A DNA stretch of 18,929 nt. It comes from a virus. Numbering within the stretch: the first letter of the stretch is position 1; every line of letters begins with the position of its first letter. The DNA lies in the UHGV virus genome UHGV-1353644, one strand, 5' to 3'. The notes beneath the pieces are model-generated. The model was not told where the DNA came from. It saw only the letters and a list, made by a program, of their open reading frames with translations, and ran no database searches. This document shows positions 4,334 to 16,460 of this stretch, in pieces. Position numbers and translations under genes: made by a program.

Positions 4334-4338
4334 TAAAA

Positions 4339-4488
4339 TTATTGCATGACTGTGATAACTGTCATGATAACACGTTGAATTCCGAACGCAAGAAGACCTC
4401 CTGCTACGGCAGGAACAACACCTAAACCCGTCAGTAAAATGCCACCAGATACTAATGCAGCGCTTGTAATACCAATGAATGGACTCAT
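4339..4488 (-). CDS. Small hydrophobic membrane protein (49 aa), motA.1 position
   Basis: My own translation: MSPFIGITSAALVSGGILLTGLGVVPAVAGGLLAFGIQRVIMTVITVMQ. Its ATG overlaps the TGA of gp52 (ATGA); terminator follows. Below the ORF-track length cutoff. Confidence 0.55.
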   Translation of the reverse strand: MSPFIGITSAALVSGGILLTGLGVVPAVAGGLLAFGIQRVIMTVITVMQ

Positions 4489-5813
4489 TTGATTTCCTCT
4501 AAATCTTTGGTGTATTCGGTAACTACATCAGTAGTTTTCCAATATTCGTTCTCTTCTTTTTTAGCTTTAGCTTCTTCAGCAAGTTTCTTCGCTTCATCGG
4601 AAGTCATATGAAAAATATTCATTCCGACTAGTTTATCAGCATAAGAAGAATACATATCAATTTTAGAAAGTTCTTCGGTCAGTTCTTTACGAGTTTTACC
4701 CTGTACAACAATTTCACCTGAAATTACTTTCTTAATGAAATGTGCCTTGGCAAAGGCTAAACGAAATGCTGACTCAGTTTCTTTAATTTTGTTATCAATT
4801 CGTTTTTGGACATAAGTTTTACGAACTTCAACAAAGTCTTTAATTAAATCGACTACGTTATCGTAAACTTGAAGCTTTCCTTTCTCATTAATAACAGTAA
4901 TATTCTGAGAACGACGTTCAATCAATCCGAAGTCTTTCATAATTTTTGCGTGACGTTCTTCTTCATTATCGCTCAAAGAATATTCTTTACGGAATTTAAC
5001 TTTGAAGCCAAAGCCGTGCTCACCACAAGCATCATCCCATGTAATGAAGCCTTTATCTTCAAGCGGGTCTAAAATTTTACTCACATAAGTTTCACGATCA
5101 TACTTATACGGAATCTCAGTGATATGCATTTGAGTTCGTGAAGTAAACTTATATGTTCCGCGAATTTCATATTGCCCATCAATTTCAACGACTTCACCAC
5201 GAAATTCTGGGAATTCTACCTTCGGTTTAGTTACTTTCTTTCCTTGAAGAGCTTGCAATACAGCTTTCTTGACAGAAGAAACACTATGAGGAAGAATGTA
5301 AGTTGCATAACCAGTTGCAATACCGGAAACACCATTAAGAAGAACGGTAGGAATAATAGGCAAATAGAAAGCAGGCGGAATGTGTTCTTTATCTTGATGT
5401 ACCGGAGCATATTCAGTATCTTTATATACACTATAGAAATTTTTACTTACACGAGCAAAAATATAACGACTTGCCGCTGCTTTTTGAACGGTACGAGAAC
5501 CAAAGTTTCCTTGACCATCTAACAGAGGAAAGTTATTATTCCATGTGTTAGCCATCAAAGCACCCGCATCTTGTGCAGAGTTTTCGCCATGATGATATCC
5601 AAGGTCAGCTACACCACCTGCAATAGAAGCGAGTTTATGAAACTTATCTTTATTTCCTCGTGCCAAATCAAGAGCTCGAGCAATAACAAATCGTTGAACT
5701 GGCTTAAATCCATCAATCATATTTGGGATAGCACGATTTTCAACCGTGTACATAGCATAAGCCAATGCTTCATTATCAATGATACTTTTTAAATCGCGAT
5801 TATTCAGTTGCAT
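4485..5813 (-). CDS. 52: DNA topoisomerase II medium subunit gp52 (GyrA-like, 442 aa)
   Basis: Translation has the GyrA/ParC-type catalytic region (AASRYIFARVSKNFY, with the RYxxxR active-site Tyr context) and an N-terminus like recalled T4 gp52. Confidence 0.95.
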   Translation of the reverse strand: MQLNNRDLKSIIDNEALAYAMYTVENRAIPNMIDGFKPVQRFVIARALDLARGNKDKFHKLASIAGGVADLGYHHGENSAQDAGALMANTWNNNFPLLDGQGNFGSRTVQKAAASRYIFARVSKNFYSVYKDTEYAPVHQDKEHIPPAFYLPIIPTVLLNGVSGIATGYATYILPHSVSSVKKAVLQALQGKKVTKPKVEFPEFRGEVVEIDGQYEIRGTYKFTSRTQMHITEIPYKYDRETYVSKILDPLEDKGFITWDDACGEHGFGFKVKFRKEYSLSDNEEERHAKIMKDFGLIERRSQNITVINEKGKLQVYDNVVDLIKDFVEVRKTYVQKRIDNKIKETESAFRLAFAKAHFIKKVISGEIVVQGKTRKELTEELSKIDMYSSYADKLVGMNIFHMTSDEAKKLAEEAKAKKEENEYWKTTDVVTEYTKDLEEIK

Positions 5814-10349: not shown

Positions 10350-12527
10350 TTAGGCCGCAAGGGCCTTCATAGTTTTAGCGATTTGGGAAACTTCATCATC
10401 ACTTAAAGAGTTGCGATATCCGATGAAGTCGGAAACAATACGGAATTTCTTGGTAAACTCAGCAACCATTTTATCACTGTTTTTTGAAGCATTATATGAT
10501 AATTTATCAAAAAGATTAGTTACTGTCCAGATGTCATGACCGATGGTATCTTTTCCACCGTTAAAATATACACCCTGTAATGAACTAACCATATTAGCGA
10601 GTCGTGTATATTTTTCAGAAACTTCATCTGTACTGAAGTACTTCATCATAAAATCTAACTCAGGATACTTGATGATTTTATCAATATATCGTTTAGCTGA
10701 ACTTGAATAACCTACGTACTCATCATAATCTACATCATCAAAAGCATCTACATATAAATCACGCACAGTTTCAAAAATACATTGGCACTGACCAAGTTCT
10801 TTTACCTTTTTCTGTAAAAGAGGACGAATAACATAAAATTCATTAATGCCAATAAGATTAGCCATACGAATCAAAATATTCATAGATGGATTACAAAGAG
10901 ATGTAGTACCATCCATAGAGAAAATATCAGAACGATGCATATACGCTACATAACCAGTAATTTCATCTGCTTCTGACGTAAGCGTAAATAGTTCTTCTTT
11001 TTCCCAACGCCCATCTTTAATTTCAAACTTAAATGCTGTAGCAGCTTTAGGACGAGGAGCTTTACTTTTAACTGCCTTCGGAATATAGCTTTTAACTAAA
11101 GCTTCAATTTCTGACAAATAATGAATGTTAACTTCATCACTTTCAAACATCGCCATAATATCAGGAAGTAAATCAATTTGTGATTCTACTTCTGGATTAA
11201 TAAACAGAAGACGCTCATTATGATGAATATTTAAAGTGTTATTAAATTCACTATCATCTAACGCATGTGCTAATCCACGGACAATATTAACACGATTTTT
11301 AATATCATCAATAACGATATTAATTTTTGTTGTATTAATACCGAACAGACGATAGCTTGATGCAACGGCTGAAGTTTCATGGCTTTGCTTAATGCGTTTC
11401 AGTCGAGGGTCAAGATTTACTTCATACACAACCCCTGCATTACATAACTTACTATCAGGTTCAAACATGCTCTGCATCTTCTTATATGACAGATTTTTAG
11501 TCGTGAATTTGACTGAATTACTAATCATATAATCTCGAGCAGAATATCCCATCTTCATCAATTCACGATATGTGTGACGAGGAGATGTAGATTCTTTAAA
11601 TCGTTTTACATCTTCATTAAATGCTTGCTCACTGAGTTCTTTAACTCGTTCAATAATATTTTTACGAGTACGATCATCCAGTGAAAGAGCCTCGCGAGAT
11701 GGAGCAATATCAAGTGAACCCATTGGAAACTTAATGTAATTCACTTCATTACGAATGCTTAGCCAGTTACGCTCTCTAATAACACCATCAATAGGATAAA
11801 CAATACCGCCATAGATAGCATACAATCCACCACGATCAGGCCAATATCTTTCTGGATTTACGCCATAGTAGTCATCAAAATCCGGAAAATAATCAATTTC
11901 ACGGTCAAGACCATTAATGATAGCCAAATCTTTGAACGGCCGCATGATATAAGAAACTTCATAAGCAAAGTTTCTAAAGTCTTTTTCTTCAACTGGAACT
12001 ACGATTTCAATACCAGTTTTATCATCTGGACCCATTTCTTTTACGAATGTAGGTTTAATTTGTGGACCATCGCCATCCATATAAGCTACATAACCACGAA
12101 TTTCGCCTTTATGATACGAAGTAATACTAAACGTATCAGTATAACTAAATGGAGATTTAGAACCTAAACCAAATCCGCCAATGAAATCGTTGGATTCGGC
12201 TTTAGATGAACTGAAGTATGAATTATACAGACCAGGAGAATTATCATCACCCTGAATATCAAAATCACTCATACCTGGACCAAAATCTCGGCAAACAAAT
12301 CGCGGATCTAATCGTCCAGGAACTTGTATGATAAATTTTTCAGGATTTCCATTGAGTGCATGAGCATCAATCATGTTAGTAATTAATTCACGGACTACTG
12401 CGCGAATCTTGTTTGTATACAAATCAGACGACAAAATTTTAAATACTTTAGGAGATGCTGTGATGCTAAATGCTTTTGATTTAGAACCATTACCAAGAAT
12501 TGTTTCTTTTTCAGTGGTGATAATCAT
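10350..12527 (-). CDS. rIIA: rIIA protein (725 aa) with N-terminal GHKL-type ATPase fold
   Basis: Length 725 aa as in T4; translation carries GHKL motifs ([11 protein letters not shown]-box, RDFGPGM G1, [10 protein letters not shown]2) and matches recalled T4 rIIA. Confidence 0.95.
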
Positions 12528-12765: not shown

Positions 12766-12797
12766 AATTATACCACATCCTTGTGGTAAAGTAAACT
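12766..12797 (-). promoter_or_regulatory. T4 early-type promoter for rIIA.1-rIIA-rIIB, abutting the gp39 stop codon
   Basis: Minus strand: GTTTAC (complement of 12791-12796, overlapping the gp39 TAG by 1 nt), 18 nt ending ATGTGG, TATAAT (complement of 12767-12772). Confidence 0.6.
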
Positions 12798-14613
12798 ACT
12801 GGCTCATCCATTCTTTGCGAAGGTCAGCATTATCTCCCATGAGCATTTCAAAAAGCTCTTTCCAATTCTCAGGAAGTTTAACAACATCATATACTGGATT
12901 TTGAATCATCTCACGATATTCAGATTTTTCCAAAGAGCCAAGTCCTTTAATATAACGGATGCTATGTTTAGGTAGAGCATCTTTGGCACTCTCATATTCA
13001 GCGACTGTATAAAACCATTCTTGTTTTTTACCGACCTGAGCGATGATTACAGGAGTTTTGACAAAGCGAATTCGCCCCTGTTCAAACAGTTCTGGCCAAT
13101 TACTAAAAAATCCAAGCAGAGAAGGATAAATGCTTCCTAGACCATCATGGTCAGCATCAGTCATAATAGCAATATTACGATAATTCAAGTTTTCAGCTTT
13201 TTCACCAAGAACTAGACCAGTGATTGCGCAAATATCAAATAGTTCTTTGTTTTTAAGCATATCGGCATATGACATACCCCAGCTATTAAGAACTTTACCA
13301 CGCAATGGATAACCACCATGAAGTTCTTTATCGCGAACATCAATAAGATATCCGATAGCAGAATCACCCTCAGTTAAGAACAATGTAGTGTCAGCATCTT
13401 TACCACAAAGATTCGCTTTAATATGTTTATGAACCTTAGCTTTAGAAGCCTTTTTAGCTGCTTTAGTTTCTGCTGCTTTTTCTGCCGCCAATTTACGAGC
13501 TAATGCTGCTTCAATAATTGGCATCAAAATTGCTTCATTATTTAGAATAGCGCGTGAAATCTTTTTAGCATCAAGTTGAATATGACTACGAATTTCACCA
13601 AATGGAGAAGTCAAACGCTCTTTAGTTTGAGAATCAAATCGCATGTTTTTCATATCACGAACAAACATAACGATAGTCAAACATTCTTTAACACGTGCTT
13701 TAGTTACATCAATTTTGAACTTACGTTTGATTTGTGGAATAAGGTCTTCACAAATATCATCCATAACACAATCAATGTGATGGCCACCATTCTTAGTGTG
13801 AATGTTATTCACGTAAGTTAATTGACGAAAACCATCCGGTGAACGACCAACCGCAATAGAACAATTTTCTTGCTCTTGAACAATAGCATGCTCATCATAT
13901 TGGCGTGCATATTTCTTAAAATTACCCTGAACCTTTTTACCATTAAAGGTAAATTGAATATCAGGATAAACTACAGCAAGTGTCTGGAGACGATCTAGTG
14001 TAATGTCAAGATAAACTTGGGACAGCTCATTAGTTTCAAATGACATAAAATCAGGAATGAAAGTAACACGAGTTCCTTTCCATTTTCCAGGAATATCTTC
14101 CCATGATTTATTTTCCATGCCATTTGAACAACGAACTACAATATTATTTTGACCATCACCAGTTTCACCGACAAACATCACAGAAAAAATGTTTGTCAAA
14201 CTAGAACCAACACCGTTCATACCACCAGTGACGCGTTCTTTATCATCACCGAAGTTACCACCAGCTTTTGGAATAGTCCAAGCAGCTACCGGACCAGGAA
14301 TTTCTTCGCCGGTAGGTGTTTTAACCATCGCTTGTGGAATACCACGACCGTTATCTTCAACTGTTACTTGATTGTTTTTAATAGTAACATTAATTTTATT
14401 CGCGAATTTAAACTTAGTACGAATACCTTCATCTACTGAGTTATCGATAATTTCATCAATAAGCTTAACAAGACCAGGTACATACTGAACACTTTCCCAT
14501 TTACCAAACAGAAAGCGCTCATGCATTTCATTAGCGGAAGAGCCAATGTACATGCCGCTACGCTTTTTGATATGTTCAATATCGCTCAGAATTTTAATTT
14601 CATTCTTAATCAT
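12796..14613 (-). CDS. 39: DNA topoisomerase II large subunit gp39, unsplit GyrB-like form (605 aa from ATG)
   Basis: GHKL ATPase motif VEDNGRGIP, Toprim motifs LTEGDSA and DADHDG, and PLRGK. One continuous 605/606-aa frame, as in T2-type phages where genes 39 and 60 are fused. ATG at 14613 has SD GAGGA at good spacing (the track starts at GTG 14616). Confidence 0.95.
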   Translation of the reverse strand: MIKNEIKILSDIEHIKKRSGMYIGSSANEMHERFLFGKWESVQYVPGLVKLIDEIIDNSVDEGIRTKFKFANKINVTIKNNQVTVEDNGRGIPQAMVKTPTGEEIPGPVAAWTIPKAGGNFGDDKERVTGGMNGVGSSLTNIFSVMFVGETGDGQNNIVVRCSNGMENKSWEDIPGKWKGTRVTFIPDFMSFETNELSQVYLDITLDRLQTLAVVYPDIQFTFNGKKVQGNFKKYARQYDEHAIVQEQENCSIAVGRSPDGFRQLTYVNNIHTKNGGHHIDCVMDDICEDLIPQIKRKFKIDVTKARVKECLTIVMFVRDMKNMRFDSQTKERLTSPFGEIRSHIQLDAKKISRAILNNEAILMPIIEAALARKLAAEKAAETKAAKKASKAKVHKHIKANLCGKDADTTLFLTEGDSAIGYLIDVRDKELHGGYPLRGKVLNSWGMSYADMLKNKELFDICAITGLVLGEKAENLNYRNIAIMTDADHDGLGSIYPSLLGFFSNWPELFEQGRIRFVKTPVIIAQVGKKQEWFYTVAEYESAKDALPKHSIRYIKGLGSLEKSEYREMIQNPVYDVVKLPENWKELFEMLMGDNADLRKEWMSQ

Positions 14614-14640
14614 CACTTATCCTCGTTTGGTTTCGGGAAT

Positions 14641-14666
14641 ATTATACTCCGGTAATCATAAAGCTA
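14641..14666 (-). promoter_or_regulatory. Candidate MotA-dependent middle promoter upstream of gp39
   Basis: Minus strand: TTTAGCTTTA (MotA-box-like, consensus TGCTTtA), 12 nt, TATAAT (complement of 14641-14646), about 25 nt upstream of the gp39 ATG. Confidence 0.5.
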
Positions 14667-14682
14667 AAGGCCCGAAGGCCTT
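14667..14682 (-). other. UUCG-tetraloop RNA hairpin immediately after the lipoprotein stop codon
   Basis: Minus-strand RNA: AAGGCC-UUCG-GGCCUU. The following sequence is only partly U-rich, so a stabiliser or weak terminator. Confidence 0.5.
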
Positions 14683-14943
14683 TTATTTAAAACGAATAGT
14701 CGAATCCTTAAAGAACAGCCCAGAACATACTGTTCCTTCTACTTTCTGCCCGGTAGGTCCAATAGCACGAAATCCAGTATGTTGGAAATCATTTTCAGAG
14801 CAACCAAACCAATTGTATCCAGTGATTTCAATATTAGTAAACCCACTTGAAGATAAAACTTTGGTTGCATTATCAGCATCAGTACATCCTACTAAAGATA
14901 CTGCTAATACTAATGCCGCGATAGAACGATTAACATATTTCAT
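14683..14943 (-). CDS. Predicted small lipoprotein (86 aa from ATG)
   Basis: Translation MKYVNRSIAALVLAVSLVGCTDADN... has a signal peptide with lipobox LVGC and two further Cys in the mature part. ATG at 14943 (the track extends to TTG 14955). Confidence 0.6.
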   Translation of the reverse strand: MKYVNRSIAALVLAVSLVGCTDADNATKVLSSSGFTNIEITGYNWFGCSENDFQHTGFRAIGPTGQKVEGTVCSGLFFKDSTIRFK

Positions 14944-14947
14944 AATT

Positions 14948-15322
14948 TCACTCAAATTTAATGGCTTGAAGGAGACTAATAATTCTTAAACGGCTTCTTT
15001 CATCTTTAACTGTAAAAGAAAGAGGGTCGCCAGATTTCATAGTGATAGTGCATTCAAAATCAAAATTTTCGGGAACTTCTTCGAAGAAGTCAAATTCTTC
15101 ATCATAAATTAGAACTTCACTCCGCAGACTGTGAAGAATTTTTCCAGCATTTCTGCTAGTTGCTGTACTAATCATCGTAACATTGCGACCTTTCATATCT
15201 TCAACGATAAATTCGCTTGTAGATATTACAGCATTAATAGAACCATTCCTGTGAATAGCAGACATTAGATATTTCTTTTCTTCGCCTTCGCGAATGCGAT
15301 ATTTCTTACCGATTTTAAACAT
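14948..15322 (-). CDS. Hypothetical protein (124 aa)
   Basis: ORF track; its ATG sits 2 nt after the stop of the zinc-ribbon ORF. Confidence 0.6.
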   Translation of the reverse strand: MFKIGKKYRIREGEEKKYLMSAIHRNGSINAVISTSEFIVEDMKGRNVTMISTATSRNAGKILHSLRSEVLIYDEEFDFFEEVPENFDFECTITMKSGDPLSFTVKDERSRLRIISLLQAIKFE

Positions 15323-15324
15323 AA

Positions 15325-15501
15325 TTATCCTTTAAGTAAGTCGTAAAATCCACCATTCACATGCTTAGGAGCAGAAGCCCGACGAGTAGACAAACGATGA
15401 CATTTAGGGCAAACATCATTTTCTCGTTCAGAAATCTTTTTAATTTTTTCATATTCATGCCCACAATCTTTAGATTGGCATTTATAATCATACATCGGCA
15501 T
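15325..15501 (-). CDS. FmdB-like zinc-ribbon protein (58 aa)
   Basis: My own translation: MPMYDYKCQSKDCGHEYEKIKKISERENDVCPKCHRLSTRRASAPKHVNGGFYDLLKG. Two CxxC pairs and an MP.Y.Y.C start typical of the FmdB zinc-ribbon family. SD AAGGAA upstream. Below the track cutoff. Confidence 0.6.
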   Translation of the reverse strand: MPMYDYKCQSKDCGHEYEKIKKISERENDVCPKCHRLSTRRASAPKHVNGGFYDLLKG

Positions 15502-16148: not shown

Positions 16149-16418
16149 TTAATTGAACAGTGGAGTGATGCGTTTCAGAAGAGTAGCAGCACCTTTGGCG
16201 AATTTTACATCATGAAAAACAGTTTCTTCTTCCATTACAACACGAGCTTTAATGTTTTCGCAATCCCAATTTTTACGAACAATCTTCAAAAGCTGTAGTA
16301 AATCTTTACATTCAGCAATATCGATAACACATCCGCGAGAATCTTCCATTATCGCACGATAACCATAAGCCATACCATAATCGTTGAAAGATTGTTCGAT
16401 GATGATTAAGTTTTCCAT
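16149..16418 (-). CDS. Hypothetical protein (89 aa from ATG)
   Basis: ATG at 16418 preceded by SD GGAGAA, about 45 nt downstream of a promoter (the track uses an upstream TTG). Confidence 0.6.
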   Translation of the reverse strand: MENLIIIEQSFNDYGMAYGYRAIMEDSRGCVIDIAECKDLLQLLKIVRKNWDCENIKARVVMEEETVFHDVKFAKGAATLLKRITPLFN

Positions 16419-16460
16419 TTTATTCTCCAAGTTGTTTTCTGTATCAGTAGTTGATATTGA

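What the first reader, a model, noticed from the sequence alone, without database searches (positions are those of the whole stretch)
14683..14943. Small predicted lipoprotein next to the topoisomerase gene
The 86-aa ORF has a textbook signal peptide and lipobox (AALVLAVSLVGC) followed by a Cys-containing mature domain (WFGCSEN...GTVCSG). An early-expressed phage lipoprotein is a classic superinfection-exclusion or receptor-masking candidate (by analogy to T5 Llp or Cor-type proteins). It is followed by a UUCG hairpin.
Basis: inference. Interest (0 to 1): 0.5.

Follow-up and report, generated by a model that had tools for sequence, protein, structure and literature searches.

The report
T4 gp39.1-type phage envelope lipoprotein

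Summary
Window 14683-14943 (minus strand) encodes an 86-aa protein with a standard lipoprotein signal peptide, the only such ORF in the window. It sits 66 nt upstream of the topoisomerase gene and ends in a C(UUCG)G hairpin. The window is a T-even phage early region, and the gene is the orthologue of T4 gp39.1 (84/86 identical, phrog_902, function unknown). The family occurs in 1,071 phage records and 2,226 metagenomic 50%-identity clusters, from T4-like and jumbo phages of Proteobacteria. The lipobox Cys is kept in 93% of members. Two mature-domain cysteines are kept or lost together, which suggests a disulfide. The predicted fold is one helix on a four-stranded sheet, a generic cystatin/PepSY/VirB8-like shape. 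Published T4 data show early RNA and a detected protein. Superinfection exclusion is possible but untested. The Llp/Cor analogy fails on three counts: only the signal peptide aligns with Llp, the gene is not next to a receptor-binding gene, and the mature domain is nearly unchanged in T2, T4 and T6, which use different receptors. I favour a periplasmic binding module with a conserved target. Side result: the T4 reference sequence has errors that truncate gp39.1 and hide its signal peptide.

The parts
14683..14943 (-). CDS of the gp39.1-type prolipoprotein, 86 aa plus stop codon
   Evidence: ORF list and sequence. phrog_902 at E 9.5e-37. 84/86 identical to re-sequenced T4 gp39.1. 1,071 phage records by tblastn. 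Synonymous changes far outnumber non-synonymous ones.
14887..14943 (-). Signal peptide, residues 1-19: n-region MKYVNR, then h-region SIAALVLAVSLV, whose last two residues (L17, V18) with G19 and Cys20 form the lipobox
   Evidence: Read from the sequence. Meets the PS51257-type rule. Unique in the window.
14884..14895 (-). Lipobox L-V-G-C, residues 17-20. Cys20 (14884-14886) is the predicted lipidated first residue of the mature protein, followed by Thr at +2.
   Evidence: Cys20 is conserved in 271 of 292 family members. The +2 residue is Thr in 247 and Ser in 28, with no Asp among the four commonest residues. Pfam LPAM_1 is recognised in 7 of 100 relatives.
14686..14883 (-). Mature periplasmic domain, residues 21-86: helix 23-32 and four antiparallel strands (36-43, 54-61, 67-74, 82-85)
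14800..14802 (-). Cys48 codon, one half of the predicted disulfide
   Evidence: Cys48 and Cys73 are both present in 279 members, both absent in 9, and singly present in 4. Fisher p = 6e-14, not corrected for phylogeny.
14725..14727 (-). Cys73 codon, the other half of the predicted disulfide
   Evidence: Same covariation table.
14948..14953 (-). Weak ribosome-binding site (GAG at 14951-14953) next to the TGA stop codon (14948-14950) of the upstream 124-aa ORF. Four nt separate that stop from the ATG.
   Evidence: Read from the sequence. Translational coupling is my inference.
14666..14683 (-). C(UUCG)G tetraloop hairpin, 7-bp stem, starting in the stop codon
   Evidence: Folds at -10.7 kcal/mol, z = -2.9. 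Identical in T4. One related record annotates a terminator at the gene (H32). The simple terminator scan did not call it because there is no clean T run after it.

Best explanation
The gene is the orthologue of T4 gp39.1.

Shown, or strongly predicted from the sequence:
- It is transcribed early as part of the leftward early-gene cluster.
- The 86-aa precursor carries a lipoprotein signal peptide. It would be exported by Sec, lipidated on Cys20 and cleaved by signal peptidase II.
- The 66-residue mature domain is one helix packed on a four-stranded antiparallel sheet, with a long beta1-beta2 loop pinned by a Cys48-Cys73 disulfide.

Inferred:
- The nearly invariant polar residues (Tyr43, Asp52, Thr56, Lys79, Thr82, Arg84) form a binding surface.
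- The protein works alone as a membrane-tethered periplasmic binding or inhibitor module.
- Its target is conserved across Proteobacteria or across large lytic phages. It is not the phage's own receptor.
- The role I think most likely is protecting the infected cell envelope after adsorption. That could mean blocking the periplasmic passage, or the wall-degrading tail tip, of later-arriving phages. It would be a receptor-independent superinfection exclusion, closer in logic to T4 Spackle than to T5 Llp.
For: Identity and conservation.

Lipoprotein features and their conservation.

Membrane tethering is kept even where the lipobox is replaced by an N-terminal transmembrane anchor (for example P0088, P0119, P0124).

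Disulfide covariation. Fold.

Expression: T4 39.1 has early RNA and a detected protein (PMC9697503 supplementary files 4 and 6).

Stand-alone module: no conserved neighbour in 26 loci outside the T-even synteny (contexts).

Conserved, receptor-independent target: the mature domain is identical in T2 and T4 and differs at one residue in T6, and the family extends to jumbo phages of Agrobacterium, Burkholderia, Edwardsiella and Klebsiella.

Not borrowed from the host: no match in 5,426 complete E. coli genomes, and one hit in 185,579 species genomes.

A homologue sits beside an integrase and a CI-like repressor, and others are on phage-like plasmids. This fits a function that protects the carrier cell.
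Against: There is no functional evidence of any kind, and I found no paper on gp39.1.

From my own knowledge, Imm and Spackle are credited with most T4 superinfection exclusion, which leaves little phenotype for a third factor to explain.

The protein is classed as late-accumulating, which is odd for a factor needed in the first minutes of infection.

A genome-wide knockdown screen scored T4 39.1 as having no fitness effect (PMC11879866). However, its guides were placed on a wrong start codon and on erroneous reference sequence.

Lipidation, outer-membrane location and the disulfide are predictions, not measurements.
Confidence: 0.3

Rival explanations
1. The protein inhibits or modulates a host periplasmic enzyme, such as a protease like DegP or Prc, or a peptidoglycan hydrolase. 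This would serve the phage's own cycle by keeping the envelope intact through a long latent period, or by tuning lysis timing.
For: The fold class is shared with PepSY domains (YpmB, YpeB), cystatins and latexin, many of which are enzyme inhibitors or regulators. The invariant polar patch and the disulfide-pinned loop fit an inhibitor. The wide host range of the family fits a conserved host enzyme as target. Late accumulation of the protein fits a role in the later part of infection.
Confidence: 0.22
2. The protein is a counter-defence factor. It neutralises an envelope-located host or prophage barrier, or an envelope stress signal that would abort infection.
For: It lies among non-essential early accessory genes, where from my own knowledge T-even phages keep many anti-host functions. 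It is dispensable-looking in the laboratory (with the caveat). It is restricted to phages and phage-like elements.
Against: No PADLOC-related or other anti-defence signal was found. The domain is extremely conserved across very different hosts, whereas counter-defence genes usually vary with the defence they target.
Confidence: 0.13
3. One reading: an Llp/Cor-type receptor mask that binds the phage's own outer-membrane receptor from the periplasmic side and blocks adsorption of sister phages.
For: [quoted passage not shown]
Against: Only the signal peptide aligns with Llp; the one BLASTP match is 16 residues. The gene is not adjacent to a receptor-binding protein gene, a hallmark of llp/cor. 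The mature domain is the same in T2, T4 and T6 despite different receptors. The family is present in phages of many genera.
Confidence: 0.06
4. The protein is a lysis component: an outer-membrane spanin subunit or another lysis regulator.
For: It is an outer-membrane lipoprotein of spanin-like size.
Against: No neighbouring gene encodes a transmembrane partner. The upstream 124-aa ORF has no hydrophobic segment. The mature domain has one proline in 66 residues and is predicted to be folded. The RNA is early, not late. From my own knowledge, T4 already has the spanin pair PseT.2/PseT.3.
Confidence: 0.04

Closest known systems
T4 gp39.1 (PHROG phrog_902; called 'Lipoprotein' in UniRef and some GenBank records)
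   Same: It is an orthologue: 84/86 identical to gp39.1 of re-sequenced T4. It occupies the same slot between gene 39 and gene 39.2. The profile match is E 9.5e-37.
   Different: Nothing of substance differs. This window, like T2 and T6, has an extra 124-aa ORF between 39.1 and 39.2 that T4 lacks. The function of the family is unknown.
T5 Llp and the Cor family (superinfection-exclusion lipoproteins that jam FhuA)
   Same: It is a small phage lipoprotein made early, with a periplasmic mature domain of about 60-66 residues and an internal disulfide.
   Different: The mature part shows no homology. The Cys spacing differs: mature residues 29 and 54 here, against 11 and 58 in Llp. The gene is not next to a receptor-binding gene. 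The sequence does not vary with receptor use.
T4 Spackle (gp61.3), a periplasmic inhibitor of the incoming phage's tail lysozyme
   Same: This is the functional model I lean towards: an early T-even periplasmic protein that acts after adsorption on a conserved target rather than on the receptor. This comparison rests on my own knowledge plus the mention of Spackle in PMC9586334.
   Different: From my own knowledge, Spackle is a soluble helical protein, not a lipoprotein. No sequence relation was tested or is claimed. The functional analogy is inference only.
PepSY, cystatin and VirB8 (NTF2-like) folds
   Different: The scores are low, identity is 5-18%, and no sequence profile matches. The domain is about half the size of VirB8. 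This is a resemblance of fold class, not membership.
Ltp of Streptococcus phage TP-J34 (a lipoprotein that blocks DNA injection)
   Same: From my own knowledge, it is a phage lipoprotein that excludes other phages after adsorption and independently of the receptor. That makes it a precedent for the mechanism proposed here.
   Different: It comes from a Gram-positive temperate phage and has an unrelated helical repeat fold. It was not compared here.

Membership tests
Bacterial lipoproteins (Lgt/LspA substrates, PROSITE PS51257-type rule) | A positively charged n-region and a hydrophobic h-region, then a lipobox ending in Cys at residue 15-35 | tested here: met
   MKYVNR, then SIAALVLAVS, then L-V-G-C with Cys20. 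It is the only such ORF in the window. 247 of 292 relatives meet the strict rule.
Bacterial lipoproteins (Lgt/LspA substrates, PROSITE PS51257-type rule) | Experimental lipidation and globomycin-sensitive processing | not testable with these tools
   This needs palmitate labelling or globomycin treatment. SignalP and LipoP were not available either.
Bacterial lipoproteins (Lgt/LspA substrates, PROSITE PS51257-type rule) | Outer-membrane sorting: no Asp at position +2 (E. coli Lol-avoidance rule) | tested here: met
   The +2 residue is Thr here. In the family it is Thr in 247 and Ser in 28 of 292 members, and Asp is not among the four commonest residues at that position. The rule itself is established knowledge for E. 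coli and may differ in other hosts.
T4 gp39.1 / phrog_902 | Full-length match to the family profile and to T4 gp39.1 | tested here: met
   phrog_902 at E 9.5e-37 over residues 1-86. 98% identity to gp39.1 of MT984581.
T4 gp39.1 / phrog_902 | Position between gene 39 and gene 39.2 in T-even genomes | tested here: met
Llp/Cor superinfection-exclusion lipoproteins | Sequence homology of the mature domain to Llp or Cor | tested here: not met
   hhalign aligns only the signal peptide. BLASTP gives one 16-residue match at E 0.008 for that single comparison. Only Llp was compared; no Cor sequence was tested directly.
Llp/Cor superinfection-exclusion lipoproteins | Gene adjacent to the receptor-binding protein gene | tested here: not met
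   llp lies next to oad (pb5) in T5 (PMC9586334). Here the neighbours are the topoisomerase gene and a 124-aa ORF.
Llp/Cor superinfection-exclusion lipoproteins | Specificity for the phage's own receptor | tested here: not met
   This is an indirect test. The mature domain is identical in T2 and T4 and has one change in T6. That these phages use different receptors is my own knowledge.
Llp/Cor superinfection-exclusion lipoproteins | Exclusion phenotype on expression | not testable with these tools
   This needs plating and adsorption assays.
Outer-membrane spanin subunits (Rz1-like) | Gene embedded in or next to an inner-membrane spanin gene, with late expression | tested here: not met
   The neighbours have no transmembrane segment. 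T4 39.1 RNA is early.
Outer-membrane spanin subunits (Rz1-like) | Proline-rich, largely unstructured periplasmic segment | tested here: not met
   There is one Pro in 66 mature residues, and the domain is predicted to be folded.
PepSY / cystatin-like inhibitor domains | Match to the family sequence profile | tested here: not met
   No Pfam hit for the window protein or for 100 relatives, apart from LPAM_1.
PepSY / cystatin-like inhibitor domains | Fold similarity | tested here: inconclusive

The most novel reading that the evidence does not exclude
The gp39.1 family may be a periplasmic effector shared by T4-like and jumbo phages. It would bind one envelope component conserved across Proteobacteria, or a conserved part of incoming phage tails. 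That would define a receptor-independent class of phage envelope-takeover or superinfection-exclusion factor. It would have gone unnoticed in the best-studied phage because the T4 reference sequence truncates the gene.
Probability: 0.25. Interest if true: 0.65.

Novelty: new member of a known kind. Interest (0 to 1): 0.35.

Why it matters
T-even phages are the reference system for how a virus takes over the bacterial envelope, including exclusion, lysis inhibition and lysis. This family is one of the few predicted envelope proteins shared by T4-like and jumbo phages of many hosts, and it has no assigned function. A conserved target would point to a weak spot in the Gram-negative envelope that many large phages exploit or protect.

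There is also an immediate practical point. The T4 reference record (NC_000866/AF158101) carries sequence errors that truncate gp39.1 and gp39.2. This has already carried over into a PHROG 'singleton' label and into misplaced knockdown guides in a genome-wide screen.

Tried and rejected
- **T4 pseudogene idea.** I first concluded that T4 carries a broken 39.1, with the lipobox lost and a frameshift. This was wrong. Only the four Sanger-era records show it, and every re-sequenced T4 has the intact gene.
- **Profile libraries.** Pfam, NCBIfam and PADLOC gave nothing beyond weak lipoprotein-signal matches. A profile search of PDB sequences gave nothing below E = 1.
- **Literature.** Five searches found no study of gp39.1. 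Two phage transposon-mutagenesis papers do not cover it. The T4 genome review (PMC150520) is not held.
- **Partner gene.** Clustering the neighbours of 26 loci found only T-even synteny: topoisomerase, 39.2 and cef.
- **Bacterial genomes.** The first scan failed because the alignment was too diverse. The second used only two peptide patterns, so it may miss distant bacterial homologues.
- **CRISPRi-ART.** I set aside the 'Not Fit' score for T4 39.1 because the guides target the wrong start and erroneous sequence.
- **Link to topoisomerase.** Rejected, because the adjacency is lost outside the T-even lineage.

Full report
**1. What is in the window**

The window is an early-gene region of a T-even phage (genus Tequatrovirus), with all genes on the minus strand. 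A 1.1-kb query around the finding matches 521 phage records. The best is Shigella phage Shfl2 at 96.6% identity. Gene order:
- rIIA (10350-12527) and rIIA.1
- an unsplit 606-aa topoisomerase II large subunit (12796-14616)
- the target ORF (14683-14943)
- a 124-aa ORF (14948-15322)
- the 39.2 zinc-ribbon gene
- goF, cef, motB and dexA

**2. Check of the observation**

The ORF runs from ATG 14943 to TAA 14683 on the minus strand and encodes 86 aa.

The N-terminus has two basic residues, a 12-residue hydrophobic core and L-V-G-C with Cys at position 20. This meets the PROSITE PS51257-type rule. Among 316 start/ORF combinations of at least 40 aa in the window, only this ORF meets it.

The hairpin AAAGGCC-UUCG-GGCCUUU lies at 14666-14683 and starts in the stop codon. 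It folds at -10.7 kcal/mol with z = -2.9. From my own knowledge, C(UUCG)G hairpins are a classic feature of T4 intercistronic regions.

The simple terminator scan did not call the hairpin because no clean T run follows it. It is followed by a MotA-box-like TTTAGCTTTA and a TATAAT 12 nt later. I read that as a likely middle promoter for gene 39, based on the sequence and my knowledge of T4 promoters.

SignalP and LipoP could not be run.

**3. Identity**

The protein matches PHROG phrog_902 (unknown function) at E 9.5e-37 over its full length. It has no Pfam, NCBIfam or PADLOC family. The Shfl2 record calls its counterpart similar to RB51/RB14 gp39.1.

I first thought T4 carried a broken copy. 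In NC_000866 the lipobox reads LINS, and a one-base insertion puts a stop after the signal peptide, so the annotated gp39.1 is a 65-aa protein starting at an internal ATG.

That is an artefact. Only four Sanger-era records share that sequence: M89919, X06220, AF158101 and NC_000866. Every re-sequenced T4 differs at 12 of 181 positions and annotates an intact 261-nt 39.1 and a 177-nt 39.2. Two independent re-sequenced genomes agree with each other base for base.

Re-sequenced T4 gp39.1 is 84/86 identical to the window protein and has the lipobox LIGC. The mature domain is identical in T2, Shfl2 and T4, and has one substitution in T6.

**4. The gene is real and expressed**

- tblastn finds it in 1,071 of 50,697 phage records.
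- Codon differences from T2, T6 and T4 are 9-12 synonymous against 1-2 non-synonymous. Against a 78%-identical relative they are 39 against 19.
- In a published time-resolved T4 study, gene 39.1 is classed as early RNA and late protein, so the protein was seen by mass spectrometry (PMC9697503, supplementary files 4 and 6).

**5. The family**

A profile search of 1.84 billion cluster representatives gives 2,226 hits at E <= 0.001 and 1,122 at E <= 1e-10.

Named members come from phages of Escherichia, Klebsiella, Enterobacter, Yersinia, Serratia, Aeromonas, Vibrio, Edwardsiella and Erwinia. They also come from jumbo phages: BcepSaruman, Eowyn, Atu_ph07, pEt-SU and N1M2. Metagenomic contigs that carry it have T4-type genes (gp32, UvsX, UvsW, terminase) or jumbo-phage content.

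It is essentially absent from bacterial chromosomes:
- No match in 5,426 complete E. coli genomes, using a DNA search of limited reach.
- One locus in 185,579 species genomes, using a pattern-limited scan.
- That one locus lies between an HNH endonuclease and an integrase, near a CI-like repressor. This is a temperate-phage context, on a contig binned to a Firmicute MAG.
- Three plasmid records carry distant copies. Two of them look like phage-plasmids, with RNR, dUTPase and RNA ligase genes.

**6. Conservation pattern**

Across 292 aligned members:
- The lipobox Cys is present in 271.
- The next residue is Thr in 247 and Ser in 28, and Asp is not among the four commonest residues there. By the E. 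coli rule this predicts outer-membrane sorting.
- Cys48 and Cys73 are both present in 279, both absent in 9 and singly present in 4. Fisher p = 6e-14, not corrected for phylogeny. This argues for a disulfide.
- 21 members have Cys at position 74 and 21 have Cys at position 81, which looks like a second pair.
- Nearly invariant polar residues are Tyr43, Asp52, Thr56, Lys79, Thr82 and Arg84.

About 15% of members fail the strict lipobox rule. Several of these have an uncleaved N-terminal transmembrane anchor instead, and one has a prepilin-like motif. What is conserved, then, is tethering of the domain to a membrane on the periplasmic side.

**7. Structure**

Two AlphaFold2 models give the same topology: helix 23-32 followed by four antiparallel strands. 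One is full length with 35 sequences (pLDDT 75.7). The other is the mature domain with 144 sequences (pLDDT 78.2).

**8. Context**

The position next to topoisomerase holds only within the T-even lineage. In RB43, a Vibrio phage, BcepSaruman and metagenomic phages the gene sits among unrelated small genes. Clustering the neighbours of 26 loci shows no recurring partner apart from the T-even synteny genes. The gene therefore looks like a stand-alone module.

**9.

According to PMC9586334, Llp has these features:
- It is a 61-residue periplasmic outer-membrane lipoprotein.
- It has a Cys11-Cys58 bond.
- It is encoded next to the receptor-binding protein gene.
- It binds the phage's own receptor, FhuA.
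- It is about 20% identical to Cor proteins.

Here the result is different. The profile aligns with Llp only over the signal peptide, and the mature sequences look unrelated. The gene is not next to a receptor-binding gene. The mature domain does not change between T2, T4 and T6; from my own knowledge these use FadL/OmpF, OmpC/LPS and Tsx respectively.

A spanin role is also unlikely. There is no transmembrane partner gene, the mature domain has one proline, it is predicted to be folded, and the RNA is early.

**10. Most likely mechanism**

Steps that are shown or strongly predicted: early transcription, Sec export, lipidation on Cys20, and a disulfide-stabilised alpha/beta domain on the periplasmic side of the outer membrane.

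Steps that are inferred: the domain binds a target that is conserved across hosts or across large phages. The most likely benefit is protecting the infected envelope after adsorption, a receptor-independent exclusion similar in logic to Spackle. I put this at about 0.3.

The rivals are:
- inhibition of a host periplasmic protease or wall hydrolase for the phage's own timing (0.22)
- counter-defence at the envelope (0.13)
- an Llp-type receptor mask (0.06)
- a lysis component (0.04)

The remainder is 'something else'.

The one genome-wide screen that scored T4 39.1 found no fitness effect. But its guides sit at 5565-5605 of the erroneous reference, about 60 nt downstream of the true start. Guide 1's target is absent from real T4. 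That result says little.

**11. Verdict**

The gene is a catalogued but uncharacterised family (T4 gp39.1). The specific Llp/Cor analogy is not supported, and exclusion in a broader sense remains an untested hypothesis. Interest is moderate-low. The family is widespread, has no assigned function and would be easy to test. However, an unassigned small accessory gene in a T-even phage is not in itself surprising.

Noticed in passing
L002 (NC_000866) 5540-5720, equivalent to window about 14860-15400: The T4 reference sequence differs from all re-sequenced T4 genomes by 10 substitutions and 2 one-base insertions. These truncate gp39.1 (65 aa instead of 86, no signal peptide) and gp39.2 (45 aa instead of 58). 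Knock-on effects are a PHROG 'singleton' label and misplaced CRISPRi-ART guides in PMC11879866.
   Followed up: yes
window 14948-15322 (-): A 124-aa ORF (phrog_622, unknown function) lies between 39.1 and 39.2. It is present in T2, T6 and Shfl2 but absent from T4. Its N-terminus is weakly similar to GoF (phrog_13003 at E 3.7e-7; BLASTP against the window's GoF at E 0.036). Its stop codon is 4 nt from the 39.1 start.
   Followed up: partly
window 14641-14668 (-): Directly after the hairpin there is a MotA-box-like TTTAGCTTTA (14659-14668) and a TATAAT (14641-14646) with a 12-nt spacer. This looks like a T4-type middle promoter for the topoisomerase gene. The sigma-70 scan did not list it.
   Followed up: no
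window 12796-14616 (-): The topoisomerase II large subunit is one 606-aa ORF, as in T2 and T6. It lacks the gene 60 / mobA / 60.1 insertion that splits it in T4.
   Followed up: partly
public records AP018813 (T2) 4334-4594; MZ502379 (Shinka) 4337-4594: Orthologues of this lipoprotein are annotated as 'XRE family transcriptional regulator' and 'heat shock protein'. Both are evidently transferred annotation errors.
   Followed up: no
L010 5956-6201 (MAG contig JAZONB010000028): A homologue with a full lipobox sits between an HNH endonuclease and an integrase, near a CI-like repressor. This is a temperate-phage context, on a contig binned to a Firmicute (Acutalibacteraceae). Either the contig is mis-binned or the family reaches temperate elements.
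   Followed up: partly
L049 5956-6225; L050 5950-6207; L051 5905-6189 (plasmid records): Distant homologues (37-40% identity) lie on two roughly 117-kb Rhizobiaceae 'plasmids' whose content looks like phage (RNR, dUTPase, RNA ligase), and on a Burkholderia megaplasmid. In the two Rhizobiaceae elements the gene overlaps an upstream ORF of about 320-340 aa by 4 nt.
   Followed up: partly
family members P0088, P0119, P0124, P0150, P0109 and others: The family includes several variants: an N-terminal transmembrane anchor instead of a lipobox, a prepilin-like GFTLVE motif, a tandem duplication of the domain, and 21 members with an extra Cys pair at positions 74/81.
   Followed up: partly
window 16149-16430 (-): A 93-aa ORF lies between cef and motB. 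It has a counterpart in Shfl2 and T2, but no gene is annotated there in T4.
   Followed up: no
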